The translations under genes were made by a program, and so were the position numbers. From Candidatus Geocrenenecus huangii (GTDB lineage Archaea > Thermoproteota > Nitrososphaeria_A > Caldarchaeales > Wolframiiraptoraceae), in NCBI GenBank assembly GCA_023254095.1, contig JALNLM010000005.1, positions 56,383 through 115,798 on the forward strand: 59,416 bases of DNA. Direction: 5' to 3'. The first letter of the stretch is position 1. Each line of letters begins with the position of its first letter. Positions 26,177-40,487 of the stretch are shown here, one piece after another. A model generated the notes under the pieces. It ran no database searches. It worked only from the letters and a program-made list of their open reading frames with translations, and had not been told where the DNA came from.

Positions 26177-26701
26177 TTGAAGATTAAGATATTTTCCGAG
26201 TTAGATAATCAGGAGGCTTTAGAGACGGTTGCTAAATTATTAGTGGAAACGTATAACTTCGAAGTTGTTGTAGAGTATATTGGAAAAATCTTGGACCACA
26301 ACAGCTTCAATAACAAGAGAAAACAGTATGATGCATGGAAGCTCGTTGAGATATATGGCGAGAAACGTAGAATGAATGAATACCTATTACTTATAGTTGA
26401 AGGAGACATATATGCTTCAGGACTCAACTATATCTTTGGACTAGCATGGCAGGGTGTCGCTGTAGTTTCTACACATAGATTAAGACAGGAATTTTATGGG
26501 CAGTCACCAGACCGACAAATCTTTATCGAGAGATTGGTTAAGGAGGCGGTACATGAAGTCGGGCATTTAAATGGGTTAACCCACTGCAATGATAGAAGAT
26601 GCGTGATGGCCTTTAGTAACTGGATAGGTGATACAGATTACAAGTCTTGGACGCTATGCCAGAAGTGTAAGTCTAAGCTTGGGAAACTCCGAGCTCAGTA
26701 A
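26177..26701 (+). CDS. amzA: Archaemetzincin (M54 Zn protease)
   Basis: KEAVHEVGHLNGLTHC...CVMAFS...LCQKC. Confidence 0.92.
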   Translation: MKIKIFSELDNQEALETVAKLLVETYNFEVVVEYIGKILDHNSFNNKRKQYDAWKLVEIYGEKRRMNEYLLLIVEGDIYASGLNYIFGLAWQGVAVVSTHRLRQEFYGQSPDRQIFIERLVKEAVHEVGHLNGLTHCNDRRCVMAFSNWIGDTDYKSWTLCQKCKSKLGKLRAQ

Positions 26702-27168
26702 TCTAATCCTTCAGGAGGAGATTGACTAAAAGATTCATCGTCGAGATTATTTTTATCTTCGTTCTTTTTTTCTACGGATATTAAGGTAAACTTTTCGAGC
26801 ATCTTCTTTATAGAGCTTCTAGGTAGCACACCCGATTCTATCAGATTCACAATAGAGTTCGGAGATGCTTCACCAACTACTTTCCCGACAACCCCTTTAA
26901 TCTGCCTCCACTTCAAGTCAGTATTTCCACTTTTAGACTTGTAGATTACTCCGAGAACCTCGATGGCTTTAACAAATCGTATATCACGAATCCTCTCTAA
27001 ATCAGTTTTCGAAACAGCCTCAACATATATCAATCCCTGAGAAATATCTCTTTCCGGGAAAATACCCGGATCCTTGAGATACTCTGTGGGGATAAATGAC
27101 TTACAAGTATTCAGAATGATGAACTGTCTAAAACGTTCAAGAGTTGTTTTACACTCTATTTTAACCAT
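26695..27168 (-). CDS. Conserved-looking hypothetical protein divergent from the SMC operon
   Basis: 157-aa ORF with host-like codon use and a GGTGGA SD-like sequence upstream; no motif recognised. Confidence 0.7.
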   Translation of the reverse strand: MVKIECKTTLERFRQFIILNTCKSFIPTEYLKDPGIFPERDISQGLIYVEAVSKTDLERIRDIRFVKAIEVLGVIYKSKSGNTDLKWRQIKGVVGKVVGEASPNSIVNLIESGVLPRSSIKKMLEKFTLISVEKKNEDKNNLDDESFSQSPPEGLDY

Positions 27169-27405: not shown

Positions 27406-29148
27406 ATGAAGCAGACGAAGAGTACTGTTGAAGCTTTAGGAGAAGTAACAGCTAGAAGGACGTATATCCGTGAAGTGATATTAGAGAATTTCATGAGCCA
27501 TGAATATTCTAGGATACCTCTTAAGCCTGGAATAAACATCGTCACGGGACCGAACGGTGCAGGAAAATCTAGTATACTTTTAGGCATAGCAGTAGCTCTA
27601 GGACAAACATATACGGAGAGAAGCCAGAAGCTCAGCGACCTTATTAGGAGAGGAGAAGAGGCGGCAAGAGTATCCGTGGTCTTCGATAACAATGAAGTAG
27701 ATGGCTGGAAACCTATACCCTGGATAACTTCAGACCAGCTTGTGATAACTAGATACATAAAGAAGAACGGGGACTACTGGCATTATGTTAATAATAGATT
27801 TAAGACGAAGGCGGAAGTCGACCACCTCCTCCATCAGCTTGGAATAAACCCGAACAACATGCTGATAATAATGCATCAAAACATGATCGAGCAGTTCGCT
27901 GCTAAGAGCAATATCGAGAAGTTGAAGATGGTTGAAGACGCTGTAGGAGCATCACATTTCAGGAGAAGAATAATCGAGGCGGAAGAAAAACTTAGGAACG
28001 TGCAATCTGAGGCTCAAACTCTTAAGAGAGCTCTAGAAGAAGCTAGAGCAGCAGTAGAATATTGGAGAGAGGAATATGAGAAGCTTGTCAAGAAGAAGAT
28101 GATGGAGGAGCAGAAGAAGAAGCTAGAAACTGAACTGGCATGGTCTGAAGTCCAGGAAGTAGAAGAAGACATCAAGAGATTACAAGAAAAGGTTGAAGCG
28201 CTTAAACTTGAACAAGTGAAGCTTAGGGGAGAACTTGCGTACCGTACGGAAGAAGCCGAGAAATTGAAGAAAGAAGTGATAGAATTGTTCATGAATAAGA
28301 ATTCGGTGGAAGAGTTCGAGGAGAGACTTAACTTGATGATTGATGAGTATGCTCAGTCCGCGGTTACGAAATACAAGCTTGAACTAAGTGAAAACACGGT
28401 TAAGAAGCTTACCTCCGAGATCAGCAAACTTGAATTCTTGAGGAATGAGAAGACCGCGAAGGCTGTGAGCCTAGGAGATAGACCTAGATATGTAAGGAAG
28501 TCCTTAGAGATAGTTGAAGACATCAAGACCGTTACTCTGAAGATTGCCTCCCTAGGAGAGGTTTCCGAAGAAGCTGAAGACATGTATCTTGTAGCAGACG
28601 CAAAATATAGAGAGAGTGAGGTTAAAGCTCAGCAAGTAGAAGAAAACTTGAAGAAAGCATTAGAAGAAGTCGAGGTTAGGAAAGAAAATTGGAGAAACTT
28701 TCTGAGAAAGCTAATCGAAGATGTTGAGCCTCGATACAACTCTATACTCTCCTACGCTGATGGTGTGGGGAAAGTTGTCCTGAGAGGCTTAGAGGACCCC
28801 GAAAAAGCGAGCATAGAACTCTACGTAGGGTTCAGAGGAGCCGAGCCTACGTTACTCGATGCTCATACTCACAGCGGTGGAGAAAGAATAGTGGCTACAC
28901 TAGCGTTCCTCCTAGCTCTCCAGAACTATGTTAAGTCTCCGTTCAGAGCTGTCGATGAATTCGACGTCCACCTGGATCCATTGAATAGAGAGAGAATGGT
29001 TAAGCTAATGATAGCCTCCGCTAAAAACTCTCCTGACTCACAATATTTCATCATAACTCCTGGTAAGCTCCCCGTAGGTGATAACGTGAACATTCTCCTC
29101 GTGCAGAATATCAGTGGCCGCTCCGTGGTGGGGAGAGTAAGTGAGTAA
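27406..29148 (+). CDS. Short Smc5/6-like SMC ATPase (580 aa)
   Basis: LENFMSH, Walker A GPNGAGKS, Q-loop MHQN, coiled coils, HSGGER signature, SPFRAVDEFDVHLD Walker B/D-loop, SQYFIITP. Confidence 0.92.
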   Translation: MKQTKSTVEALGEVTARRTYIREVILENFMSHEYSRIPLKPGINIVTGPNGAGKSSILLGIAVALGQTYTERSQKLSDLIRRGEEAARVSVVFDNNEVDGWKPIPWITSDQLVITRYIKKNGDYWHYVNNRFKTKAEVDHLLHQLGINPNNMLIIMHQNMIEQFAAKSNIEKLKMVEDAVGASHFRRRIIEAEEKLRNVQSEAQTLKRALEEARAAVEYWREEYEKLVKKKMMEEQKKKLETELAWSEVQEVEEDIKRLQEKVEALKLEQVKLRGELAYRTEEAEKLKKEVIELFMNKNSVEEFEERLNLMIDEYAQSAVTKYKLELSENTVKKLTSEISKLEFLRNEKTAKAVSLGDRPRYVRKSLEIVEDIKTVTLKIASLGEVSEEAEDMYLVADAKYRESEVKAQQVEENLKKALEEVEVRKENWRNFLRKLIEDVEPRYNSILSYADGVGKVVLRGLEDPEKASIELYVGFRGAEPTLLDAHTHSGGERIVATLAFLLALQNYVKSPFRAVDEFDVHLDPLNRERMVKLMIASAKNSPDSQYFIITPGKLPVGDNVNILLVQNISGRSVVGRVSE

Positions 29149-29908
29149 CAAGTTAGTTAAAAAGTATAGTAGGGAAGAGATTGAGAGGATAATCTCCATA
29201 TGTGAGAATATTGAGAAGAGAGGTCTAGACCCCTTCAGTCTAGATGTTAAAGAGCTATTGGTTAAGCTTCGTAAAATGCTTGAAGAAAACCCTGATTTAG
29301 ACTACTATCTACTAGATGTTGAAACAATCTACAGAATTGCGACTATAATAGCTCTACAACATAAATGGCTAACGGAAAAAGCTAGATCCCTATTCATAGA
29401 TTCTCAGCTTATCTCTTCTAGGGTAACCGTACTTGATAAGAAGTCCATTGTTCAAGCATTCCTTAAAGCTTGGAGACCAATAATATCTATCGACCAGCTC
29501 ACGTCTCAGAGACTACATCATGGTTACGAACATTTCCTAAACCTCCCACCTAGAAGAGATGAAAGAAGATATGGTTGGAAGCTTACAGAGAAGGAAGCTG
29601 AGCTCGCCCAGATATACTTAGAGAAAGAGAGAGAAGAAGTAGAGGAGAAGATGAAGGTACTATATGATGAGCTAGTTGAGAAAGCCAGAGGAAAAAATGA
29701 TGTAGATTATTGGGATTTCGTCTTACGTCCTAGCCTGGAAGAAACATATCATAGAGCCTATGTTCTAAGTTTCTTAATCTCGGAGGGATACGTAGAAGTT
29801 AAGAAGAATCCTTTAGGGGATGAATTGAAGCTCGTACCTAATACTAGAAAGGTTTCGAGAAAGAATGCTGCATCTCTTGTTATAAGCTTAATGGGTAGAT
29901 GGAGATGA
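29141..29908 (+). CDS. Kleisin-like subunit (ScpA/Nse4-type)
   Basis: DPFSLDVKELL resembles the ScpA N-terminus; C-terminal wH (LSFLISEGYVEV); overlaps the SMC stop. Confidence 0.7.
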   Translation: MSNKLVKKYSREEIERIISICENIEKRGLDPFSLDVKELLVKLRKMLEENPDLDYYLLDVETIYRIATIIALQHKWLTEKARSLFIDSQLISSRVTVLDKKSIVQAFLKAWRPIISIDQLTSQRLHHGYEHFLNLPPRRDERRYGWKLTEKEAELAQIYLEKEREEVEEKMKVLYDELVEKARGKNDVDYWDFVLRPSLEETYHRAYVLSFLISEGYVEVKKNPLGDELKLVPNTRKVSRKNAASLVISLMGRWR

Positions 29909-30492
29909 ACAGTGAAGAAAGAATATCTAGAAAACTCATGATAGCTGCGACGATGCTCTTCTTCAAGAGTCATAGAAGCCCTGGTGTAAGAGGATGGGAA
30001 CTGAAGAATAGGCTCGGCAAGAACTATATGAAGGTTTTAGAGCTACTAAACCATAAATTGAATGAACTCGGATTACAGATAAAAACGGTTTTTGAAGATG
30101 AGTCAAGCCAAGACCTTGACAGAGCAAGATTCTACGTAACTCTTACGCATCCTCTAACTATGTCGGATCTAGTGACTTCCGATTATAGGATAGATGAAGT
30201 AGCGGCTCTAGCAGTCGCTTTATCCATAATCTATAGTAGAGGTGGGAAGGCATCGTTAAGAGATGTACTGGATGTTCTAGAAACAAAATTCCCAAAATGG
30301 AAAGCTGAAACATATATTGAGAGAGCTGTAAGAAGAGGATACATCAATAAAACTGAAGATGAAATATTAACAGTAGGCTGGAGAGCGAGAGTAGAACTTG
30401 ACCAGAAGGAACTCTTAAAAGCAATACTAGAAGCCCAGCCACCCCATGAAGACAAAGCTGAAAAAGATATTAAAGAAGATAAAGCTGAATAA
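29899..30492 (+). CDS. Tandem winged-helix KITE-like subunit (ScpB/Nse1-Nse3 type)
   Basis: Two wH-like halves; C-terminal RGYI...VGWRARVEL resembles the Nse1/Nse3 WH2 end; coupled to the kleisin gene. Confidence 0.65.
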   Translation: MEMNSEERISRKLMIAATMLFFKSHRSPGVRGWELKNRLGKNYMKVLELLNHKLNELGLQIKTVFEDESSQDLDRARFYVTLTHPLTMSDLVTSDYRIDEVAALAVALSIIYSRGGKASLRDVLDVLETKFPKWKAETYIERAVRRGYINKTEDEILTVGWRARVELDQKELLKAILEAQPPHEDKAEKDIKEDKAE

Positions 30493-32433: not shown

Positions 32434-33291
32434 TCATTCGATAAACTTCGAAAGTCGCCTAACAAGTTCTTTCACATCTATACATGGTATTGTGAGCTGA
32501 TCGGTAGAGGAAGTTTTGCTGAGGACCTTGATGACAACATTGTTCCCCACTCTCTCTAGTTGATACATATATCCACTTGATGCTCTAAATATCACAGAGT
32601 AGTCCAGGTCGGATTCAATAATCTTCGAGACTCTTTCTCTGAATTCTTTCAATACTTCCTCCGGCTCCAATTCATAGGATATTTCAACTATCTCGTTCAG
32701 AATATTTGGGAGTTCTCTCTTTATCTTTCCTGCAATCTCTTCTGTTAGAGAAGCTAGTTCGTTAATTAATTCTTCTCTTACAGGCTTCGGCATAGATGCA
32801 AGCGCTTTCCTAGAATCTCTGTTTAGAAGATTCCTCAACCCAGTATTCATCATCGCTGAAGATATTCTTGCTTCCTTTATCCAGTCATATAGTGTGTCTT
32901 TAGAGAATCCTAATGCTCTAGCCGCTTCCTCAACATTTCTCCAAATACCTTCGTTGATGCATCTCAAAATAAACTTTCCTTTCTCCGCTGGAGTCAATTC
33001 TTCACGGTTTGTATGCACTATTGCAGCCATCTCCATAGCTTCTCTACGACTACAATCATATATGATACATGGTGCTTTATCTACGTTGAGAATCTTTAAC
33101 GCCTCTAGCCTCGTTCCACCATCGAATACCTCATATTCTCCATCTCTTTTTTTCCTTACGAGAAGAGGTTTAACGATGTTCCTTGATCTGTATGTCTCGA
33201 TTATGCCTTGAATGATTTCAGGACTTCTAGCTTCTCGGGGATTGTAGTCTGCGATTTTGAGCTGGTTTATCGGAATATATTCTATCTCCAA
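32434..33291 (-). CDS. ParB/Srx-family protein with HTH
   Basis: YNPR, PLLVR, YEVFDGGTRLEAL, REELTPAEKG, HTH (VEEAARALGFSKDTLYDW). Confidence 0.88.
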   Translation of the reverse strand: MEIEYIPINQLKIADYNPREARSPEIIQGIIETYRSRNIVKPLLVRKKRDGEYEVFDGGTRLEALKILNVDKAPCIIYDCSRREAMEMAAIVHTNREELTPAEKGKFILRCINEGIWRNVEEAARALGFSKDTLYDWIKEARISSAMMNTGLRNLLNRDSRKALASMPKPVREELINELASLTEEIAGKIKRELPNILNEIVEISYELEPEEVLKEFRERVSKIIESDLDYSVIFRASSGYMYQLERVGNNVVIKVLSKTSSTDQLTIPCIDVKELVRRLSKFIE

Positions 33292-33575
33292 TTCTTCAAC
33301 CTCCTAATTTTCAATACAGGTTTATTAAAATCTTCGACTATTACCTCTATTTCACCATCAGAATCTAGAAAGTGGTTTACGTTAAATTTCTTCAATGAAA
33401 GTGTGAAAACGTCTTTAAGTCTCTCCCCGTATTTTCCCAATACGTCTTTAAGTTCACCTCTACCGATTACTGCTTCATTCCATTCTCCTAGCTTGCTGTC
33501 CAGATTTTCTCTCAGTATTGTCGCGATCCTTGTGACTTGTCTAACCGCTACGTTCTTATTTTTCAGCTTCGGCAT
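33282..33575 (-). CDS. Hypothetical protein
   Basis: Overlaps both neighbours in the RHH-ParB operon; GGAGAGGAGG SD-like sequence upstream. Confidence 0.65.
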   Translation of the reverse strand: MPKLKNKNVAVRQVTRIATILRENLDSKLGEWNEAVIGRGELKDVLGKYGERLKDVFTLSLKKFNVNHFLDSDGEIEVIVEDFNKPVLKIRRLKNWR

Positions 33576-33792
33576 TCTTCCTCCTCTCCAGATATTTCCT
33601 AACCGCTAACCGTACAAGCTGGGAAATCGTCCTTTCCTCTTCTCTAGCAATCTTCTCTAACTCCCCAAACATTTCTACTGGTAGAAAAACCCCGACGAAT
33701 CTCAGACCTCTCCTTTTACTTGATAAAACCTTGTTTAAAGTTCTTTCGTTCTTCTCCATCTCATGTTCTTTTAAAATTTTTTTATCCGTCAT
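33556..33792 (-). CDS. Ribbon-helix-helix (CopG-like) regulator
   Basis: FVGVFLPVEMFGELEKIAREEERTISQLVRLAVRKYL. Confidence 0.85.
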   Translation of the reverse strand: MTDKKILKEHEMEKNERTLNKVLSSKRRGLRFVGVFLPVEMFGELEKIAREEERTISQLVRLAVRKYLERRKNAEAEK

Positions 33793-33856
33793 TTCTGCAC
33801 CAGTTATTTCACCAATAATATATAAATGTTAATTAACCAGTTCTCGACATATTTAT
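33793..33856. promoter_or_regulatory. Divergent promoter region between two RHH genes
   Basis: 64-bp AT-rich spacer containing TATATAAA and ATTTAT boxes. Confidence 0.55.
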
Positions 33857-34237
33857 ATGGTGAGAATGGGTCGAAAAAGTAGTGGGAGGATCGAGAGGTG
33901 GACTATCAGTTTAAAGCCGGAGATAGACCAGCTTCTAGAAAGGGTTGCGAAAGAGAGAGGGTTAAACAAGACCGACCTTGTTGAATCCATCATAGTGGAG
34001 TGGGCTTATAATCATGGGTACAATAAGATAATACATTTCAATTTTAGGGATGGCTTAATATCTGTATGGGATTACCTGCTGAATGAAACAGTAGACCTAC
34101 GTTATGATTCTATTAAGAAAACTCTCATATGTACGAGATGTAAAGCAACATATTGTGGGCATATAGGTGCAGCATTAAAGATACCTGAAGTAAGAAAGAA
34201 ATTAAAGAAGGGTCAAATAATCATTGAAGATATCTAA
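33857..34237 (+). CDS. RHH regulator with C-terminal Zn-binding (SWIM-like) motif
   Basis: WTISLKPEIDQLLERVAKERGLNKTDLVESII; CTRCKATYCGH. Confidence 0.78.
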   Translation: MVRMGRKSSGRIERWTISLKPEIDQLLERVAKERGLNKTDLVESIIVEWAYNHGYNKIIHFNFRDGLISVWDYLLNETVDLRYDSIKKTLICTRCKATYCGHIGAALKIPEVRKKLKKGQIIIEDI

Positions 34238-34830
34238 GAACAGTTCTTAGGTTCCCCGAGCTTCTTTAATATTTCCGTCAAGTCTTTTTCGTTCTTAACT
34301 TCGTTCTTCAGCTTATTGATAACGTGTAGAGTCTCTCTGATCTCTCCGATTATCTTCCTCCTCTCGCTAATAGATGCAATGTAATCCCTAGCAGTAGGCT
34401 TAGACCTCGAAACATCAATGGATTGTTCATCGAACTTCTCGAGCCTACCGAACAGGAGGTTCAGTCTATCAACCAGCTTCAACAATTCTTCTTGTAGGTC
34501 TATGTATCTTACGAAGCGTCTTTCAAGATATCTATACTGGAGTAAGCGTATTTTTTCAGCTTTGATCACGTGCTGACTAAAGTGCTCAACCAAATCATCT
34601 AATCTGAATCCGTATTCTTCCGCTAATTCTCTAATAGACTGAGCTAGCATTACTTTCCTATCTATTTCGATCCTCTCGGGATGAACGCATACTGGGCAAT
34701 CCCTAGAAATAATCACTACTTCTCCATTGAAGTTTCTCACTATATAGATCTCAGGTCTGAACATTCTAACGAATTTAACGACCAATTTTTTAATTAATCT
34801 CGATGTATTCATCAATGATTGAAGGCGCAA
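34234..34830 (-). CDS. HTH/coiled-coil protein, possible terminase small subunit
   Basis: CPVCVHP...SIRELAEEYG...H..QH HTH, then long helices; downstream of portal. Confidence 0.5.
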   Translation of the reverse strand: MRLQSLMNTSRLIKKLVVKFVRMFRPEIYIVRNFNGEVVIISRDCPVCVHPERIEIDRKVMLAQSIRELAEEYGFRLDDLVEHFSQHVIKAEKIRLLQYRYLERRFVRYIDLQEELLKLVDRLNLLFGRLEKFDEQSIDVSRSKPTARDYIASISERRKIIGEIRETLHVINKLKNEVKNEKDLTEILKKLGEPKNCS

Positions 34831-35003
34831 TCATAGTTTTTGGTTTGATAATTGCAATGCTTAGTATACTTAATCTAGTCGATAAAGACCTAGTTAGAGA
34901 CCTCTTAACTATCATTTCCATACTTCTCCCTCTGATCTACTCTTACAGGAGGAGGGAGGACTTCAGGAAGTTCAAAAGCTTATTCAGTAAGAGGACAAGC
35001 TAG
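34803..35003 (+). CDS. Small two-TM protein
   Basis: Two TM helices and a basic tail. Confidence 0.45.
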   Translation: MYSSMIEGAIIVFGLIIAMLSILNLVDKDLVRDLLTIISILLPLIYSYRRREDFRKFKSLFSKRTS

Positions 35004-35374
35004 TGGGAAAGTAGAAATAATAATAGAAGCGTTATGCATATCATCATCAATGGTATCCTCCTTAAGTGGAGGCTTTCTATGAAGCTTAGGAAGAACAATA
35101 TGAAGTTGATTATATACTCGATGATTGCTACTGGATACGGAGGAGATCTGAAGATAGAGTTGACAATAATGGATAAGACAACGGTTATAGACTGGATTAA
35201 CAAGAGAAACAACATTAACTTGTTTTCTTCCCACTCTTTTCTTTTTATCTTTCTCTTTCTAAATCTATTTAGAAGATTTATTGTAATATATGCCAGCAAC
35301 CCCGACCCTAACATTGATAGAAGAACGATTTGCTCCACAGATAATGGATTCATCTCGGTTTTTAAGAACCTCAC
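35000..35374 (-). CDS. Multi-TM membrane protein
   Basis: Three to four hydrophobic helices; directly after the portal gene. Confidence 0.55.
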   Translation of the reverse strand: MRFLKTEMNPLSVEQIVLLSMLGSGLLAYITINLLNRFRKRKIKRKEWEENKLMLFLLLIQSITVVLSIIVNSIFRSPPYPVAIIEYIINFILFFLSFIESLHLRRIPLMMICITLLLLFLLSH

Positions 35375-35399
35375 AAGAGCATGCTGTTGCTGGAGGGAT

Positions 35400-36659
35400 C
35401 TAATCTTTCTTCTGTAAGCTCTTCTCGGGAATTAATTGTCTAGACTCTTCTACTAGTTGAGTAAGCATATCTCTCACATCTGTTTCAAGTAAGATGTTCT
35501 TGTCAATGGGGTGGATTAATGGGAGAGGCGTATCCGCAATGGGGTGGTCGACTTCTTTAAGTCCTAGAGCCTTCCTCGCTTCATTAATTGTTTCTATGCC
35601 TGACTGGATCCTCATTACATGTATCCTTGTTTCCTGCTCAGGGTTAGTCCACTCCAGTAGCTTAAACTTCAAGTTTACTCTATGTCTTCTTCTCAATGCT
35701 TCGGTTACTGCCGCAGATATAGCTTGCTGAATACTTTTAACCTTCATGGTGAAAGCATTTATCTGGTTCCGTGAAGTCTCGAGTGTGGCCGCCTTCGTTA
35801 CTCCGAGCATTATCTCTGGTACACCTGTTACAGTAACTATCTTCTGTCTATACTCATTCAAGATGTCTAGTACTTGTAGTTCTCGGAATGGATGTCCCAG
35901 GTCTTGGATATTTATGTCTCCCTTAAGTATGAAGCTTGAGCCGGGTTTGGATTGTTCAGCTACTTTGACAAGCCTCTCGAAGTCTGCTTCCGTACCGCTC
36001 TTCATTATGAAGACTTTGCTTAGAACACCTTTCCTCATGAATGCATCCCTAACAAGCAGTTCTGCATGCATCTGACCTTCTAAGACTCTTCTAAGCGATG
36101 AGATTATCGGAGACCCGTACGCTCTCGTGCCTAAGGGGTGGAGTACGATGTGGACTATTTCTTCAGGCTTGAATAAGACCTCCATTCCATGTATCTTTTG
36201 AACATACCCTTTTATCCTTCCATGCTCGTCTCTAATTACCTCCATAGTGTAGGTATCAAGTATCTTGAAGACTGGGGTTGTGTAGACTTCAATATACGAT
36301 TCGCCGAATATTACTGAAGACATTACTAGGTTTCTCAAGAACATTATGAAGTCGTTCTCGTTTTGGTTAATCCATTCTTCAACCTTCTTAACATCATCCT
36401 CTTCTCCTATAATCATCCATCCGTTAACTATCGAAGCGTTGACAAGTACTTCGACAGCCGCCCTCAGATCTGGATTTCCCTCAACAAGCTCAAGTAACTG
36501 TCTCTGGTCGAGAGGTTTAGGTTCACCCCACCTCCATCCATGGATCGTCTCAGCCAGCCCTTTCTCCTCTTTCCTAGATTTAAAGAAGTTTTCGAAGAAC
36601 CTCATACATATACTACTATTCTCAAACACTATAATCTCTGAGAATACTTCTTTAGACAT
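35400..36659 (-). CDS. Phage portal protein
   Basis: Follows terminase; IFGESYIEV, GYVQ...FKPEEIVHI...YGSPI, TGVPEIMLG, TINEARKALGL. Confidence 0.9.
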   Translation of the reverse strand: MSKEVFSEIIVFENSSICMRFFENFFKSRKEEKGLAETIHGWRWGEPKPLDQRQLLELVEGNPDLRAAVEVLVNASIVNGWMIIGEEDDVKKVEEWINQNENDFIMFLRNLVMSSVIFGESYIEVYTTPVFKILDTYTMEVIRDEHGRIKGYVQKIHGMEVLFKPEEIVHIVLHPLGTRAYGSPIISSLRRVLEGQMHAELLVRDAFMRKGVLSKVFIMKSGTEADFERLVKVAEQSKPGSSFILKGDINIQDLGHPFRELQVLDILNEYRQKIVTVTGVPEIMLGVTKAATLETSRNQINAFTMKVKSIQQAISAAVTEALRRRHRVNLKFKLLEWTNPEQETRIHVMRIQSGIETINEARKALGLKEVDHPIADTPLPLIHPIDKNILLETDVRDMLTQLVEESRQLIPEKSLQKKD

Positions 36660-36705
36660 GTAGTAAAGCCTAGTAAGGTAAATGAGCCCTTCTACATATG
36701 CCGTT

Positions 36706-38007
36706 TCACCATCTCCATATTTCCGTTATCTTCACTTGTTGCGGTGGGGCTGACGCTGCGTAGACTGCTAGAGCTAGAGCAATTACATAATCGTCGTGGC
36801 CTCCTGAAGGCGCTTCATATCTAGTTCTTCCACTCTTATCTTGTATTCTCTGAAATTGCTGTAGCTGTCTTACTAGTTTCTCGCAGTCTACCGGTATCTT
36901 GACCCGTCGAGCCCTCATATGATTGTATAGATTGAGGATTAATGCTTCTTTCATATTCTGAGTTATGGTTAGTCCTTCGACATTTACGTGATTTCTCGTT
37001 AAGAAGTCATAAATCGGTATGCCCATCCCGGTCTTGTCTATTATTACTCTTACTGGAGATAGGTCGTCTATAAGCTTGGATATATAATCTCTCTGGTAAT
37101 TCATGTCTACCTCGGTGAATTCTTTGACGAAGACTATTCTTAGAAGGTCTTCTGTCGTCTTCTCGAGGACTATTATTACGGTTGAGTCTCTATATCTTCC
37201 TAAATCGATTCCAACGTATAGAGGATTAGAAGTCTTGACCTCTGTATAGTCAGCGTATTGATAATCTTCTAGACATGAAAATATTAATTCTGTTGGGAAT
37301 AAACTGTTTAATTCTTCGAGGAACTCCATCTCCATCTCCTGCATCCATGCTATGTGGGATAAGGTCTTCCTCAATCCTTCGAGGTCTTCGCTTGTAATGT
37401 GAGGTGAGTCGGTATAATGTATTCTATGTTTTGAGTAGACTCCGCTGACCCATGCTTCATAGAACCAACCCCTCCTGCCTTTAGGAGTCGATATCAATGA
37501 TAATCTACCCGATTTTCCAGCGATGATCGGTATGACAGCCGCTTTGATCTCCATATCGTTCCTGAACATGGCCACCTCATCTACGTATACGTGGTCAGCT
37601 CTAAACCCTCGTATCGTGTCTGGGTTATTCGGCAAACATACGATCCTGCTTCCATTCTTGAATGTTATCTCAGTTTTAGACTCAGATTCAACGATGTTTG
37701 TAGAGTATGTATGTTCTCCTATCCTTACTTTCCTACCTTTCAGTATTGATAGGGATTCTTTAATCTTCTTGAATAGCTCCATGCTCTGTCTTAACGAGTA
37801 GCTGAGAAGAAGGATTGTATGGAGTGGTTTTATGAGGCTCCACGTTAATGATTCTAAAGCGATCGTAAAGCTTCCACCTACCGCCCTAGACTTCAACATT
37901 ACTCTAAACCTACTTTTATCGTCAAGCCATCTTCTCTGCCAATCATATAGCTTTATCCCTACATCAGCGATATCTAGAAGAAGCTGAGCTAACTCGCTTA
38001 TCTCCAT
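36706..38007 (-). CDS. terL: Terminase large subunit
   Basis: LYDWQ adenine-binding motif, KSRAVGGS Walker A-like, VYVDEVA Walker B, ISTPKG, nuclease GIDLG and HDDYVIALALA. Confidence 0.95.
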   Translation of the reverse strand: MEISELAQLLLDIADVGIKLYDWQRRWLDDKSRFRVMLKSRAVGGSFTIALESLTWSLIKPLHTILLLSYSLRQSMELFKKIKESLSILKGRKVRIGEHTYSTNIVESESKTEITFKNGSRIVCLPNNPDTIRGFRADHVYVDEVAMFRNDMEIKAAVIPIIAGKSGRLSLISTPKGRRGWFYEAWVSGVYSKHRIHYTDSPHITSEDLEGLRKTLSHIAWMQEMEMEFLEELNSLFPTELIFSCLEDYQYADYTEVKTSNPLYVGIDLGRYRDSTVIIVLEKTTEDLLRIVFVKEFTEVDMNYQRDYISKLIDDLSPVRVIIDKTGMGIPIYDFLTRNHVNVEGLTITQNMKEALILNLYNHMRARRVKIPVDCEKLVRQLQQFQRIQDKSGRTRYEAPSGGHDDYVIALALAVYAASAPPQQVKITEIWRW

Positions 38008-38206
38008 ATCCTCTAATCATCTCGCTTAGGATTTCCTCGGCTAAACGTTTAAGACGTATGATATCGTTTAGCGTCCTCGCTTTACCTTCAATAACTATGT
38101 CTTCTCCGACCTTCTTAACGGCAAGGCTTACCCCATACAATACTTCACTAGTCTTAGGTGGGTACTCTTCTTTACGACTATGGAGTAGCCAGCTCACAGA
38201 ACTCAT
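37964..38206 (-). CDS. Small hypothetical protein upstream of terL
   Basis: 80-aa ORF overlapping the terL start. Confidence 0.55.
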   Translation of the reverse strand: MSSVSWLLHSRKEEYPPKTSEVLYGVSLAVKKVGEDIVIEGKARTLNDIIRLKRLAEEILSEMIRGYGDKRVSSASSRYR

Positions 38207-38307
38207 CGACTAATAGCACATTAAGAATCTGAAACACTGTACTTTGAAATCCTAGATGATCCATATCCTGTATCCTTATATTTTGTTGCATGGTTGTTTA
38301 ATCAGGT

Positions 38308-38832
38308 ATGGCGGATCCCAGGATGGTGAAGTTTACGTTTAATCCGATAGGCGTCGTTAGAGTTGACCTCGAGGATGAATTAGTCAAAGATTCTTTTGAA
38401 GGTGTTGATGGGAGACTAGAGATATTTGAAGAATATGCGGAGGGACTTGAGGGCATAGATGGCTTTACTCATCTCATAGTCATAGCTTATTTACACAAGG
38501 TAACCGGTGAACAAAGAAGTGTTCTTAAAGTAAAGCATAAGAGATTAGTGAGACTCGGTTTCAATGAGAAAGACCTTCCAGAGGTTGGAGTCTTTTGTAC
38601 AGACTCACCTCATCGTCCAAACCCGGTAGCTCTGACAATAGTTCAACTCGTGAAGAGAGAGGAAAACATACTATACGTGAAGAAACTAGACTTGTTCGAT
38701 GGTACACCAATAATAGATATCAAGCCATATACGCTTGATAGAGCGGTAATGGATTTGGGTTTCCCTGGATGGTACATCCAACTGAGAAAGAAGGTTGAAG
38801 GAGAAAGTGGGAAGAGAATACCAGATCTATGA
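38308..38832 (+). CDS. tsaA: tRNA m6t6A37 methyltransferase TsaA/TrmO family
   Basis: PIGVV, GLEGIDGFTHL, GVFCTDSPHRPNPVALT, LDLFDGTPIIDIKPY. Confidence 0.92.
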   Translation: MADPRMVKFTFNPIGVVRVDLEDELVKDSFEGVDGRLEIFEEYAEGLEGIDGFTHLIVIAYLHKVTGEQRSVLKVKHKRLVRLGFNEKDLPEVGVFCTDSPHRPNPVALTIVQLVKREENILYVKKLDLFDGTPIIDIKPYTLDRAVMDLGFPGWYIQLRKKVEGESGKRIPDL

Positions 38833-38848
38833 TCTACAACCCATGTAT

Positions 38849-39430
38849 TCATCTTGTATTGTTTTTGTTTAGCTTCTCTTCTAGCCTGGATATTTTCCAG
38901 ACAAGTATGGCTATTAGGGCTTTTAGGTCGTATCCATTCTCCCTCCTTACGATTTCAGGTAGCTCTTCCGCTATGAACCCTATCTCCTCTCTGCTCTGCC
39001 CTATCTTCCGCTTATATTTCTTAGGTTTCGGAAAAACGATCTTTTCCAATTCCGCCTCATTTAGTTCCCTTATCTCAGTCTTGTCATCTACGCTAGACCC
39101 AATCGTTATATTCGCGGTAACCACATCATTCAGATAAGCATCTAAGTCGCCGATCTTCAGTATATTTCGATCTGGAGGTTTCAGTACTCCTTCTAACGTT
39201 AGTCGTATCGTTAATTCTTCCGAAGGAGAAAACTCTATCCCACCTCCACGCTCATCGCTTATTCTTCTGACCCCTAATGACCCATTCTCGATCTCAGCGA
39301 TCTTTCTTTCAAGAAAAATATTTTGATTTTTTAATTTTAAGTCTTCCTCTTCAAGTGCCTCGAGCCAGACCTTAAGCTTCTCAGCGGCCTCAATCGGTAG
39401 GCCTGTTCCAGTATCTATTCTCCGCATCAT
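38849..39430 (-). CDS. Short tail fibre/spike protein with C-terminal intramolecular chaperone (peptidase S74-like)
   Basis: SSVDDK...PKKY...GFIAEELPE...LVWKISRLEEKL. Confidence 0.8.
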   Translation of the reverse strand: MMRRIDTGTGLPIEAAEKLKVWLEALEEEDLKLKNQNIFLERKIAEIENGSLGVRRISDERGGGIEFSPSEELTIRLTLEGVLKPPDRNILKIGDLDAYLNDVVTANITIGSSVDDKTEIRELNEAELEKIVFPKPKKYKRKIGQSREEIGFIAEELPEIVRRENGYDLKALIAILVWKISRLEEKLNKNNTR

Positions 39431-39431
39431 G

Positions 39432-40487
39432 TTACTCTACACCTAATATCATTACTTCTCCATTGCCTGACACCCACTCAAGTTTTCTGAAAGGTACAAT
39501 AACGTCAATGAATACTATTTTCTCGTTTGCTTGGCCTACCAGGTCTGCGGATGGATCATCATCAATCCTTAATACTCCTCCAGTTGACCCAAACAATATT
39601 TCCTGCACGTATGCTTCGGATACGTTCAAATGTTCGAGCGTGCAGGATGTGGATGAATAGTATAGCCATCTCTGGATAGTGAGGTTCACGTAGCCTGAGG
39701 ACTGAGCTGTGTTCTCCGTGTAGTTCACGGTTAATGTGTAGATGTTTGACTGCGGTATATCGGTTTCTCTGGTTATCGAAGTGAAGGTTTGACTGTTAAG
39801 CGTGTAGTTGTTTATCGTGGTGTTGGATACGGACGCTGAAACATCCAGCCTTTTCGTTACGGGGCCATCGTATATGAAGTCTATGTTCAACGTGTTGGGG
39901 TTTTCATAGCAGAATATCCGCATCTTGTAGTCATATGTTCGCTGAGTCCAATTACTACCATAACTATCTGCCGAGTATAGTGAAGTGTTATAGTCTGTGC
40001 TGGATAAATAAAGCGATGGATATTGACTAGTATTTGTTGTTGGTCTCTCCACGACCACCCAGTATTTCGTGTTTGCTTGAAGTGTTGGTACACTGCCCGT
40101 GAATGTTAGCTGTGTCTCACTCGTCCCAACATCACTTCCCGTGAACGTGCCTATAGTGGCAATAACATTGTTCACGTCTGGCATATTGCTGCCGTTGTCA
40201 GGGCATATCCTAACATAAACGGTATCAGTGAAATTCGCATTTTTCACTACGTGTAGAACAACCTTCACAATCTTAACCGTAAAGTTCGGCGTTATGAACT
40301 GCTGGCATCTATACCTTTCATAGTTTCCGCCTCCGAGACGAACCGTATTGTATGATGCTCCAGTAAGATTTGTCTGGCTCCAGCTTATTGTATGACTTAT
40401 AGGCGTTGAATACTGTTTGTAAACACCACCCCCAATCCACTTAAATATACGGGTTCTAGGCTTAGTTATTATCACAAGCTCGGTCAT
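39432..40487 (-). CDS. Putative tail receptor-binding/adhesin protein
   Basis: Beta-rich Thr/Asn/Ser/Tyr protein at the tail-tip position; LQANTKYWVVV motif. Confidence 0.6.
   Translation of the reverse strand: MTELVIITKPRTRIFKWIGGGVYKQYSTPISHTISWSQTNLTGASYNTVRLGGGNYERYRCQQFITPNFTVKIVKVVLHVVKNANFTDTVYVRICPDNGSNMPDVNNVIATIGTFTGSDVGTSETQLTFTGSVPTLQANTKYWVVVERPTTNTSQYPSLYLSSTDYNTSLYSADSYGSNWTQRTYDYKMRIFCYENPNTLNIDFIYDGPVTKRLDVSASVSNTTINNYTLNSQTFTSITRETDIPQSNIYTLTVNYTENTAQSSGYVNLTIQRWLYYSSTSCTLEHLNVSEAYVQEILFGSTGGVLRIDDDPSADLVGQANEKIVFIDVIVPFRKLEWVSGNGEVMILGVE

What the first reader, a model, noticed from the sequence alone, without database searches (positions are those of the whole stretch)
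27406..30492. Miniature, apparently hinge-less Smc5/6-like complex operon (SMC + kleisin + KITE)
Seen: three overlapping genes. The ATPase C-terminus (LDAHTHSGGER...LLALQNYVKSPFRAVDEFDVHLDPLN...SQYFIITP) and Q-loop region (NPNNMLIIMHQNMIEQFA) match the pattern of eukaryotic Smc5/Smc6 better than canonical prokaryotic Smc. At 580 aa it is about half the usual length, and the middle is continuous coiled coil with no evident globular hinge or Rad50 CxxC hook. Downstream are a kleisin-like gene and a tandem-wH gene ending in VGWRARVEL (Nse1/Nse3-like). Known: Smc5/6-related proteins have been reported in TACK/Asgard archaea (arcadin-4-like), so the family may not be new. Inference: a minimal three-component Smc5/6 relative that must dimerise differently; it could act in chromosome organisation or in restricting extrachromosomal DNA.
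Basis: partly seen in the sequence, partly recalled or inferred. Interest (0 to 1): 0.8.

Follow-up and report, generated by a model that had tools for sequence, protein, structure and literature searches.

The report
Hinge-less archaeal Smc5/6-like operon
Three overlapping genes in a hot-spring archaeon encode a half-size relative of the eukaryotic Smc5/6 genome-maintenance complex whose ATPase has short arms and no hinge; the gene family is already published, but its hinge-less build seems not to have been described.

Summary
Three overlapping + strand genes (580, 255 and 197 aa) encode an SMC ATPase, a kleisin and a tandem winged-helix KITE.

- **Smc5/6 affinity.** A profile of the ATPase scores highest on Smc5 and Smc6 in the PDB. 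In my tree the family is sister to eukaryotic SMC5+SMC6 (100/96). Forcing it together with canonical SMC is rejected (p-AU 0.02).
- **Partners.** Kleisin relatives hit Pfam Nse4_C in 24 of 36 cases. The folded KITE matches Nse1 and Nse3/MAGE best.
- **No hinge.** The AlphaFold2 model (pLDDT 86) has a head plus a coiled coil of about 17 nm closed by a 4-residue loop. There is no hinge and the protein has no cysteine.
- **Spread.** The short operon is in 154 of 301 sampled genomes of the phylum.
- **Already published.** This is the "SMC5/6-related" archaeal operon (Yoshinaga & Inagaki 2021; van Hooff et al. preprint). Their main texts, as far as I read them, do not mention the missing hinge. Earlier agents of this scan reported the same on seven other genomes.

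The parts
27406..29148 (+). Short SMC5/6-related SMC ATPase, 580 aa
   Evidence: ORF. Pfam SMC_N 3.4e-36. Profile scores highest on Smc5/Smc6 in the PDB. Sister to SMC5+SMC6 in the tree. AF2 mean pLDDT 86.4. Best Foldseek match is 5xei, the Pyrococcus Smc head with coiled coil and joint, TMq 0.66.
27547..27570 (+). Walker A, GPNGAGKS (residues 48-55)
   Evidence: Invariant columns G48 P49 N50 G51 G53 K54 S55 in alignment A1; motif table.
27952..28293 (+). Outgoing arm helix, residues 183-296 (114 residues, about 17 nm)
   Evidence: DSSP helix H183-296 in the AF2 model. Pro/Gly fraction at most 0.04 with heptad periodicity.
28294..28305 (+). Arm apex: 4-residue loop (residues 297-300, NKNS) where a hinge or hook would sit
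   Evidence: AF2 loop 297-300; the 10-residue blocks around it have pLDDT 76 and 83. This is the least conserved and most length-variable part of A1. The protein has no Cys.
28306..28752 (+). Returning arm, residues 301-449, with two conserved breaks (357-365 and 383-389) that resemble the SMC 'joint'
   Evidence: Helices H301-356, H366-382 and H390-449. Conserved G357 and G384. The whole chain aligns with the Smc head-coiled coil-joint structure 5xei.
28873..28884 (+). ABC signature motif SGGE (residues 490-493)
   Evidence: Invariant S490 G491 G492 E493.
28939..28965 (+). Walker B and D-loop, PFRAVDEFD (residues 512-520)
   Evidence: Invariant R514 D517 E518. 'PFR..DE' is shared with SMC5/SMC6, whereas canonical SMC has 'PFY..DE'.
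29056..29061 (+). Thr-Pro (residues 551-552) at the H-loop position, a signature shared with SMC5/6
   Evidence: Pro at this column in the window protein, 18/18 short relatives, 9/9 SMC5 and 9/9 SMC6. The 16 canonical SMC have Leu (9) or His (7); Rad50 has His.
29141..29908 (+). Nse4-like kleisin, 255 aa (GTG start, overlaps the SMC gene by 8 nt)
   Evidence: ORF. Nse4_C in 24 of 36 family members (best 5.6e-9) and 0 with SMC_ScpA. Family profile against the PDB: yeast Nse4 2.9e-5, human EID3 4.1e-5, ScpA 0.26. hhalign to this genome's own ScpA over 180 columns, E 5.2e-5, probability 67%.
29702..29842 (+). C-terminal winged-helix part of the kleisin (residues 188-234)
   Evidence: Weak Pfam Nse4_C stretch 188-234, E 0.046 for this protein. 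The same region aligns to Nse4 in the profile search.
29899..30492 (+). Nse1/Nse3 (MAGE)-like KITE, 197 aa, two winged-helix domains, no RING
   Evidence: ORF. AF2 pLDDT 86.0 with two helix-helix-helix-strand-strand units, residues 5-82 and 98-159. Top Foldseek hits are the MAGE-G1/NSE1 complex 5hvq (3e-6), MAGEA4 and Nse1-Nse3-Nse4 7dg2, followed by JetB, ScpB and MukE. Pfam SMC_Nse1 in 8 and MAGE in 7 of 35 members, 0 with SMC_ScpB.

Best explanation
This is the Caldarchaeales (Aigarchaeota) copy of the archaeal 'SMC5/6-related' SMC-kleisin-KITE operon. It is a second SMC system, carried beside the genome's canonical Smc-ScpA-ScpB operon.

Its ATPase keeps a complete head, neck and joint. 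The arms are only about 17 nm long and each is closed by a simple hairpin loop. There is no hinge and no zinc hook.

Most likely mode of action (inferred, not shown):

- Two SMC subunits are held together by one Nse4-like kleisin, which binds the neck of one SMC and the cap of the other. ATP-driven head engagement adds a second link.
- A KITE dimer sits on the kleisin.
- The complex then clamps DNA on top of the engaged heads inside the kleisin compartment, as Smc5/6 and MukBEF do. It does not hold DNA in a long arm-and-hinge ring.
- Its role is probably in chromosome maintenance or repair.

Hinge loss looks secondary, because the deepest relatives still carry a hinge or a hinge-like middle.
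For: **Shown**

- Three co-oriented, overlapping genes.
- All ATPase motifs are intact and invariant in 36 relatives.
- PDB profile ranking: Smc5 222.8, Smc6 222.1, archaeal Smc 167, Smc2 152, Rad50 48 bits.
- Careful ML tree of 64 rows x 377 head columns: canonical SMC 98/97; SMC5+SMC6 100/98; archaeal family 99/91; family plus SMC5/6 100/96.
- The constraint 'family with canonical SMC' is rejected, delta lnL 23.2, p-AU 0.0197.
- In a search of 1.84 billion representatives, the next tier after the family itself was 52 long proteins. By BLAST, 24 are SMC6-like, 20 SMC5-like, 6 canonical and 2 Asgard. Three were named SMC5 or SMC6 by their sources.
- The cluster of the long relative P0282, which lies inside the family clade, contains RLI38935.1. 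That accession is on Yoshinaga & Inagaki's list of 80 'SMC5/6-related aSMC'.
- Kleisin. KITE.
- No hinge.
- The own genome also has canonical SMC (1135 aa) with ScpA and ScpB, and Mre11 with a Rad50-like gene, at other loci.
- Distribution fits a core gene. 154 of 301 sampled genomes of the phylum have a family-level match (my count from the table; 63 more match only at the canonical-SMC level, 84 not at all).
- The neighbourhood is housekeeping: NAD kinase, a dehydrogenase and archaemetzincin.
- In 3 of 3 genomes tested of family f12, two of them single-contig, a canonical-SMC query found only the short SMC.
- Hinge loss is secondary. Basal Freyarchaeum P0338 has Pfam SMC_hinge at 4.6e-11, and basal P0313 and P0326 have Pro/Gly-rich middles.

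**Inferred**

- The 2:1:2 stoichiometry.
- Neck and cap binding of the kleisin.
- DNA clamping.
- The cellular role.
Against: - Dimerisation through the arm tips or along the arms is therefore not excluded.
- The AF2 model is a monomer.
- The KITE family profile found nothing in the PDB by sequence. hhalign to this genome's own ScpB was null, probability 0.4%. The KITE call therefore rests on the fold match and on weak Pfam hits (8 and 7 of 35).
- For the window proteins themselves, Nse4_C (E 0.046) and MAGE (E 0.013) are below Pfam's cut-offs.
- My tree has no SMC1-4 sequences and only one Rad50 outgroup on a long branch.
- Six canonical SMCs score as high as SMC5/6 in the large profile search.
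- Evidence of expression is only a 209-nt exact contig in one metatranscriptome, which could be DNA carry-over.
- A defence-type role against extrachromosomal DNA is not excluded.
Confidence: 0.72

Rival explanations
1. It works mainly as a defence or restriction system against extrachromosomal DNA such as viruses and plasmids. It would act like Wadjet or Lamassu, or like the antiviral role of human Smc5/6, and not as a chromosome-maintenance complex.
For: The SMC head hits PADLOC models of SMC-like defence ATPases: mad3 1e-32, LmuB 1.9e-18, AriA 1e-15. The folded KITE also resembles Wadjet JetB, 8dk1_E at 1.4e-4. Short-armed SMC-like ATPases are typical of Lamassu (recalled, not tested). A head-tail provirus-like block lies 2 kb downstream in this window.
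Against: The kleisin and the KITE have no PADLOC hit at E 0.01. The head hits are at superfamily level. The operon is single-copy and found in 154 of 301 sampled genomes across many families. Within the order it has conserved neighbours: the upstream 157-aa gene is present in 18 loci. It is the only SMC-type match in 3 of 3 tested f12 genomes. This is the pattern of a core gene, not of a patchy defence island. The ParB-like gene of the provirus block is not found near the operon in the 50 related loci.
Confidence: 0.15
2. It is hinge-less in sequence but still forms a closed SMC ring. The two hairpin tips, or the whole arms, would associate into a stable dimer. It would then entrap or extrude DNA much as a normal, only smaller, SMC complex does.
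For: Related ATPases without a hinge do dimerise through arm tips (the Rad50 hook and the RecN coiled-coil tip; recalled, not tested). Long-armed members nested within this family carry a CxxCG...W..H motif at mid-arm, which suggests that tip-to-tip joining matters in the family.
Against: The apex is the least conserved part of the protein (mean column conservation 0.32-0.34). It varies in length among 36 relatives and has no conserved motif. 28 of 36 relatives have no Cys in the middle. The AF2 monomer shows only a 4-residue loop. No dimer could be folded.
Confidence: 0.25
3. It is a shortened paralogue of the canonical archaeal Smc-ScpAB system, or a Rad50/ASRP/arcadin-type protein, and the Smc5/6 likeness is a long-branch artefact.
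For: The best NCBIfam hit is SMC_prok_A at 199.7 bits, and ASRP gives 77 bits. Six canonical SMCs score 234-242 bits with the family profile, the same range as SMC5/6. The quick tree warned that long branches meet.
Against: Both NCBIfam hits are far below their cut-offs of 729 and 300 bits, and NCBIfam holds no Smc5/6 model. The careful tree gives 100/96 for family plus SMC5/6, and the AU test rejects the union with canonical SMC, p 0.0197. Pro at the H-loop position and 'PFR' in Walker B are shared with SMC5/6 and not with canonical SMC or Rad50. The partners hit Nse4_C, Nse1 and MAGE, and never ScpA or ScpB. There is no zinc hook. Mre11 and the Rad50-like gene lie elsewhere in the genome.
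Confidence: 0.04

Closest known systems
Archaeal 'SMC5/6-related' SMC + Nse4-related kleisin + Nse1/3-like kite operons of TACK and Asgard archaea (Yoshinaga & Inagaki 2021, PMC8665677; van Hooff et al., bioRxiv 10.1101/2024.01.07.573240)
   Same: The same three-gene operon, the same phylogenetic position as sister of SMC5+SMC6, and the same co-occurrence with a separate canonical operon. A published member, RLI38935.1, falls inside the same clade.
   Different: Nothing in kind: this is a member. The parts of those papers that I read do not mention the short arms or the missing hinge. Term searches for 'shorter' and 'truncated' found nothing, and 'hinge' appears only in general introductions.
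Eukaryotic Smc5/6-Nse1-Nse3-Nse4 core complex
   Same: The head sequence signature, an Nse4-type kleisin and a MAGE/Nse1-type tandem winged-helix KITE.
   Different: One SMC gene instead of an Smc5/Smc6 pair. Arms of about 114 residues per strand, against more than 300 in 1040-1170-aa SMC5/6. No hinge. One KITE gene. The KITE has no RING (197 aa, no Cys in the translation). No Nse2 or Nse5/6 were looked for or seen in the operon.
Prokaryotic Smc-ScpA-ScpB (condensin-like), present in the same genome
   Same: The gene order SMC-kleisin-KITE and the expected 2:1:2 build. The kleisin is distantly alignable to this genome's ScpA.
   Different: The short SMC is about half the size (580 aa against 1135 aa). 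It fails TIGR02169 (199.7 bits against a cut-off of 729.4). Its partners never hit the ScpA or ScpB Pfam models.
Rad50 and archaea-specific SMC-related proteins (ASRP: ClsN/coalescin, Sph1/2), arcadin-4
   Same: An SMC-superfamily head with a coiled coil and no SMC hinge, and a similar size of about 600-900 aa.
   Different: Those families carry a zinc hook (PMC9389158, section read) and have no kleisin or KITE partners. Here there is no Cys, and the scores are far below their models: ASRP 77/300, arcadin-4 33.6/860, Rad50 about 75/1000 bits.
Wadjet JetABC and Lamassu LmuB-type defence SMCs
   Same: An SMC-like ATPase with kleisin and KITE partners in Wadjet. The KITE fold resembles JetB. Lamassu has short arms (recalled).
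   Different: The partners have no PADLOC hits. JetC models match only coiled coil, at 1e-6. The operon has a core-gene distribution.

Membership tests
Archaeal SMC5/6-related SMC-kleisin-kite operon | The SMC head groups with eukaryotic SMC5/SMC6 and not with canonical SMC | tested here: met
   Careful tree: family plus SMC5/6 at 100/96, canonical SMC as a separate clade at 98/97. AU test rejects family plus canonical, p 0.0197.
Archaeal SMC5/6-related SMC-kleisin-kite operon | Lies in the same clade as a sequence the authors listed as SMC5/6-related aSMC | tested here: met
   RLI38935.1 is on the published list. It is a member of the 90% cluster of P0282, which lies in the 98/98 crown clade together with the window protein.
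Archaeal SMC5/6-related SMC-kleisin-kite operon | An Nse4-related kleisin is encoded next to the SMC | tested here: met
   24 of 36 members hit Nse4_C (best 5.6e-9) and none hit ScpA. Profile against the PDB: Nse4 2.9e-5.
Archaeal SMC5/6-related SMC-kleisin-kite operon | An Nse1/3-like kite is encoded next to the kleisin | tested here: met
   Best Foldseek hits are NSE1 and MAGE-G1, E 3e-6. Pfam SMC_Nse1 in 8/35 and MAGE in 7/35, ScpB in 0/35. Sequence-only PDB search was null.
Eukaryotic Smc5/6 holocomplex | A heterodimer of two distinct SMCs (Smc5 and Smc6) | tested here: not met
   One SMC gene in the operon. In the own genome the family query matched only the gene itself and the canonical SMC.
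Eukaryotic Smc5/6 holocomplex | A hinge domain that dimerises long arms | tested here: not met
   The AF2 model has a 4-residue loop at the arm tip. No Pfam SMC_hinge hit.
Eukaryotic Smc5/6 holocomplex | Nse1 RING finger, Nse2 SUMO ligase, Nse5/6 | tested here: not met
   The single KITE is 197 aa with no Cys (translation). No further genes are in the operon. Nse2 and Nse5/6 were not searched for genome-wide.
Eukaryotic Smc5/6 holocomplex | Head sequence signatures (Pro at the H-loop position, PFR in Walker B) | tested here: met
   Pro in the window protein, 18/18 short relatives, 9/9 SMC5 and 9/9 SMC6; 0/16 canonical.
Canonical prokaryotic Smc-ScpAB | Passes the SMC equivalog model, has a hinge, and has ScpA/ScpB partners | tested here: not met
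   TIGR02169 gives 199.7 bits against a cut-off of 729.4. No hinge. ScpA 0/36 and ScpB 0/35.
Rad50 / ASRP (ClsN, Sph) / arcadin-4 | A zinc hook CxxC at the arm tip, and scores above the family models | tested here: not met
   0 Cys. ASRP 77/300, arcadin-4 33.6/860 and Rad50 74.7/1000 bits. Rad50 scores 48 bits against Smc5 at 222.8 in the PDB profile search.
Wadjet / Lamassu defence systems | Partner proteins JetA/JetB/JetD or LmuA/LmuC | tested here: not met
   No PADLOC hit for the kleisin or the KITE at E 0.01. The SMC hits are generic.

The most novel reading that the evidence does not exclude
The crown group of the archaeal sister family of Smc5/6 has discarded the SMC hinge altogether and works as a compact ATP-gated DNA clamp: heads, kleisin and a KITE dimer, with 17-nm arms that are not joined at their tips. 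In some lineages it is the only SMC complex in the cell. If so, the hinge and a closed arm compartment are dispensable for the core cellular job of an SMC-kleisin-KITE machine. The family would also have tried three arm-tip solutions: a hinge in the deepest branches, nothing in most, and a Rad50-like zinc hook in one long-armed subclade.
Probability: 0.3. Interest if true: 0.8.

Novelty: new member of a known kind. Interest (0 to 1): 0.5.

Why it matters
Smc5/6 is the least understood eukaryotic SMC complex, and its archaeal sister is the obvious simple model for it. Models of SMC action assign key roles to the hinge and to the compartment enclosed by the arms.

A natural, widespread, thermostable SMC-kleisin-KITE complex without a hinge is a ready-made test of which of these functions need a hinge. 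It is about 1,870 residues for a 2:1:2 assembly, small enough for easy reconstitution and cryo-EM.

For this particular window the finding is one more member of a published family. The added value lies in the architecture and in its evolutionary polarity.

Tried and rejected
- **Complex prediction** on two copies of the arm (residues 175-440) was not available, so no dimer test was made.
It worked.
- **KITE by sequence** gave nothing. The profile against the PDB found no hit, and hhalign against this genome's own ScpB gave probability 0.4%.
- **Pfam SMC_hinge** found nothing anywhere in the own genome, not even in the 1135-aa canonical SMC. A missing Pfam hinge hit is therefore no evidence by itself, and I relied on the fold.
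- **Matching accession numbers** of close relatives to Yoshinaga's list failed. GBC68864.1, GBC71795.1, HDD42849.1 and RLG04884.1 are not on it. Their list holds 60%-identity representatives only. The link came later through RLI38935.1.
- **First tree attempts** were too slow with 875 columns. I then cut the alignment to head columns.
- **Lhr helicase neighbour.** Earlier scan notes mention a conserved one. There is no ORF of 900 aa or more within 14-46 kb of this window.
- **ParB-like gene** at 32434-33291 as a possible loader. It is not near the operon in 50 related loci, and it belongs to a provirus-like block.
- **Long hook-bearing forms.** None was found among 401 sampled genomes of the phylum at E 1e-100.
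- **RNA run X17** covers only 7 of 30 bins, mostly with other organisms' conserved Q-loop region. This is no proof of transcription.


Full report
**What is there**

One search lists three + strand ORFs that overlap by 8 and 10 nt: 27406..29148 (580 aa), 29141..29908 (255 aa, GTG start) and 29899..30492 (197 aa).

Names given by sources to close homologues place the organism in the Aigarchaeota/Caldarchaeales. The nearest named KITE locus is Candidatus Geocrenenecus, at 87% identity. The stretch recurs in hot-spring metagenomes of several studies.

The neighbours are housekeeping genes: NAD kinase, a PIN-domain protein, an isocitrate/isopropylmalate-type dehydrogenase and archaemetzincin.

**The ATPase is an SMC of the Smc5/6 type**

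Pfam gives SMC_N at 3.4e-36. NCBIfam gives only sub-threshold hits: SMC_prok_A 199.7 against a cut-off of 729.4, ASRP 77 against 300, arcadin-4 33.6 against 860.

Against all PDB sequences the single protein scores best on yeast Smc5, at 129 bits. A profile of 36 relatives gives this ranking:

| PDB protein | Bits |
|---|---|
| Smc5 | 222.8 |
| Smc6 | 222.1 and 219.5 |
| Pyrococcus Smc construct | 167 |
| Smc2 | 152 |
| Smc3 | 124 |
| Smc1 | 119 |
| Smc4 | 117 |
| Rad50 | 48 |

The same profile, run over 1.84 billion representatives, found the family itself first. The next tier was 52 long proteins at 230-249 bits. By BLAST to reference sequences, 24 are SMC6-like, 20 SMC5-like, 6 canonical SMC and 2 Asgard. 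Sources name P0355 and P0361 as SMC5 and P0354 as SMC6. P0181 and P0185 are SMC6 by PDB search.

I built a careful maximum-likelihood tree of 64 rows x 377 head columns under LG+C20+F+G4 PMSF, rooted on this genome's Rad50-like protein. Supports are ultrafast bootstrap / SH-aLRT:

| Clade | Support |
|---|---|
| Canonical SMC | 98/97 |
| SMC5+SMC6 | 100/98 |
| Archaeal family | 99/91 |
| Archaeal family + SMC5/6 | 100/96 |

Forcing the family and canonical SMC into one clade costs 23.2 log-likelihood units, p-AU 0.0197.

Two caveats apply to the tree. It contains no SMC1-4 sequences. The single outgroup sits on a long branch.

Motif columns agree with the tree. At the H-loop position Pro is found in the window protein, 18/18 short relatives, 9/9 SMC5 and 9/9 SMC6. 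The 16 canonical SMCs have Leu or His there, and Rad50 has His. The Walker B context 'PFR..DE' is likewise shared with SMC5/6, against 'PFY..DE' in canonical SMC.

**The partners**

*Kleisin.*
- The window protein alone gives only Nse4_C at E 0.046.
- 24 of 36 family members hit Nse4_C (best 5.6e-9) and none hits SMC_ScpA.
- The family profile finds yeast Nse4 (2.9e-5) and human EID3 (4.1e-5) in the PDB, ahead of ScpA at 0.26.
- hhalign aligns 180 columns with this genome's own ScpA, E 5.2e-5, probability 67%.
- The ESM Atlas lists a eukaryotic Nse4_C cluster at 0.91.

*KITE.*
- Sequence evidence is weak. The window protein hits MAGE at E 0.013. SMC_Nse1 hits 8 and MAGE 7 of 35 members, and ScpB none.
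- The profile search of the PDB was null, and so was hhalign to the own ScpB.
- The AlphaFold2 model (pLDDT 86.0) has two winged-helix units.
- Its best Foldseek matches are the NSE1/MAGE-G1 complex (3e-6), MAGEA4 and Nse1-Nse3-Nse4. JetB, ScpB and MukE follow. That list is the KITE superfamily, with Nse1/Nse3 first.
- The translation has no cysteine, so there is no RING.

**No hinge**

- The protein has no cysteine. Residues 183-350 are almost free of Pro and Gly and show heptad periodicity. The middle is the least conserved and most length-variable part of the alignment.
- The AlphaFold2 model (mean pLDDT 86.4, pTM 0.64) has one helix of 114 residues (183-296), a loop at 297-300, and a return through helices 301-356, 366-382 and 390-449.
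- The two conserved breaks (G357, G384) look like the SMC 'joint'.
- The best Foldseek match of the whole chain is the Pyrococcus 'Smc head with coiled coil and joint' construct 5xei, TMq 0.66.
- At about 0.15 nm per residue, the arm is about 17 nm long.
- The lack of a Pfam hinge hit is no evidence on its own, because the 1135-aa canonical SMC of the same genome has none either.

**A second system in the same genome**

On other contigs the genome carries canonical SMC (1135 aa) followed by ScpA (218 aa) and ScpB (203 aa, PF04079 at 1.9e-36). It also carries Mre11 next to a 659-aa Rad50-like gene.

**How common it is**

- 217 of 301 sampled genomes of the phylum match at E 1e-10. By my count of that table, 154 match at family level (best E of 7e-60 or lower), 63 only at the canonical-SMC level, and 84 not at all.
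- All 50 loci that I cut out carry the three genes in order, with SMC ORFs of 578-756 aa; one further ORF, of 521 aa, is cut by the end of its contig. These are 30 from the same order and 20 from other families.
- A scan of species genomes with the KITE found 560 relatives among 596 candidate stretches. Of the 80 best loci (Caldarchaeales and Bathyarchaeia), 66 have an SMC frame of 521-684 aa upstream.
- Of 80 metagenome loci found with a long relative, 63 have the kleisin next to the SMC.
- In 3 of 3 tested genomes of family f12, two of them single-contig, a canonical-SMC query found only the short SMC. In 2 of 2 genomes of family f10 a canonical SMC is also present.

**Evolution of the arm tip**

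- Candidatus Freyarchaeum P0338 (835 aa) sits at the base of the SMC5/6 + family clade and has Pfam SMC_hinge at 4.6e-11.
- The two deepest family members, P0326 (928 aa) and P0313 (982 aa), have Pro/Gly-rich middles.
- The 98/98 crown clade holds the window protein, 18 short forms and 5 long forms (795-1047 aa).
- Those long forms carry CxxCG...W..H at mid-arm, which resembles a Rad50 zinc hook.
- The simplest reading is that the hinge was lost once at the base of the crown, and that one Bathyarchaeia subclade later lengthened its arms and gained a hook. This is an inference from one tree.

**What is known**

- Yoshinaga & Inagaki 2021 defined 'SMC5/6-related aSMC', mostly from TACK archaea. 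I read passages, section 10, Methods passages, and supplement parts 1 and 3.
- Yoshinaga et al. 2022 separate these from the hook-bearing ASRPs and place arcadin-4 with Rad50. I read the outline and section 7 part 1.
- van Hooff et al. (bioRxiv) describe operons of SMC5/6-related SMC, Nse4-related kleisin and Nse1/3-like kite in TACK and Asgard archaea, beside the canonical operon. I read the outline, sections 8 and 13, and a term search.
- RLI38935.1, from the published list, is in the cluster of P0282, inside the crown clade with the window protein.
- None of the text I read mentions short arms or a missing hinge.
- Full-text searches found nothing further: 'SMC, archaea, hingeless' (1 unrelated plant paper), 'archaea, Nse4, Nse3, operon, SMC' from 2022 on (only the preprint) and 'SMC5 6-related, archaeal' (0 papers).
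- The preprint's supplement was closed and may bear on this point.
- Earlier agents of this scan reached the same reading on seven other genomes.

**How it most likely works**

Shown: intact ATPase motifs, the kleisin and KITE partners, and the monomer architecture.

Inferred: a 2 SMC : 1 kleisin : 2 KITE complex. The kleisin bridges the neck of one head and the cap of the other. ATP engages the heads, and DNA is clamped on them within the kleisin compartment. Because the arm tips carry no conserved joining element, a closed arm compartment is unlikely but not excluded.

The core-gene distribution favours chromosome maintenance or repair over defence. A defence-like role is a live rival: PADLOC hits exist only for the generic head.

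**Verdict**

It is a further member of a published family. The hinge-less, short-armed build and its apparent secondary origin are the parts that I could not find in print.

Noticed in passing
window 32434-44730, minus strand: A head-tail provirus-like block lies 2 kb downstream of the operon. It holds a ParB_N+HTH gene (32434-33291), an RHH gene (33556-33792), a portal (35400-36659, PF04860 at 1.7e-22), a large terminase (36706-38007, 3.2e-13) and a tape-measure-like gene (42385-44730, PF10145 at 6.8e-28). GC rises to 0.45-0.47 at 42-46 kb. I did not look for its ends or an integrase.
   Followed up: partly
P0121-P0127, P0282, P0289, P0324; locus L146:2111-5230: Long-armed members (795-1071 aa) nested inside the short family carry a mid-arm CxxCG...W..H motif like a Rad50 zinc hook. 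On P0121's own contig, no kleisin or KITE was detected in the 700 nt downstream of the gene. None was found among 401 sampled genomes of the phylum at E 1e-100.
   Followed up: partly
G016:C1:417539-419266, G008:C1:252858-254585, G136:C1:29472-31205: In three genomes of family f12, two of them single-contig at 97% completeness, a canonical-SMC query matched only the short SMC5/6-like gene. This short complex may therefore be their only SMC.
   Followed up: partly
L107:5953-6567, L116:5953-6567, L130:5941-6567: KITE-like genes with no SMC or kleisin of this family within 6 kb, in Calditenuaceae and other Caldarchaeales MAGs. These may be orphan or second KITE copies.
   Followed up: no
L072:2652-5149 and L073:669-3212: In two Nitrososphaeria MAG contigs, about 2.5 kb with unrelated ORFs (134 and 370 aa; 355 aa) lies between the short SMC and its kleisin.
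   Followed up: no
L061:1137-4541 (G000 contig C23): This genome's canonical 1135-aa SMC gives no Pfam SMC_hinge hit at E 0.01, although it sits in a normal SMC-ScpA-ScpB operon. Its hinge must be divergent.
   Followed up: no
L062:2683-4659 (G000 contig C6): The Rad50-like gene next to Mre11 is only 659 aa, shorter than the profile lengths of 872-895 positions of the NCBIfam Rad50 models listed.
   Followed up: no
P0393 (Thorarchaeota, 1126 aa) and P0375 (1117 aa): Two Asgard-type long SMCs share the SMC5/6-type Pro at the H-loop position, and P0375 has a Pfam hinge at 1.6e-6. My tree nevertheless places them outside both the SMC5/6 and the canonical clades.
   Followed up: no
window 28316-28524 and 28935-29074: A sediment metatranscriptome run (X17) holds a 209-nt exact contig and a 140-nt contig with 4 differences inside the SMC gene. 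This is only a weak hint of transcription, because DNA carry-over is possible.
   Followed up: partly
window 26695-27168, minus strand: A 157-aa protein with no Pfam hit is divergently oriented upstream of the operon. It is conserved at that position in 18 related Caldarchaeales loci.
   Followed up: no
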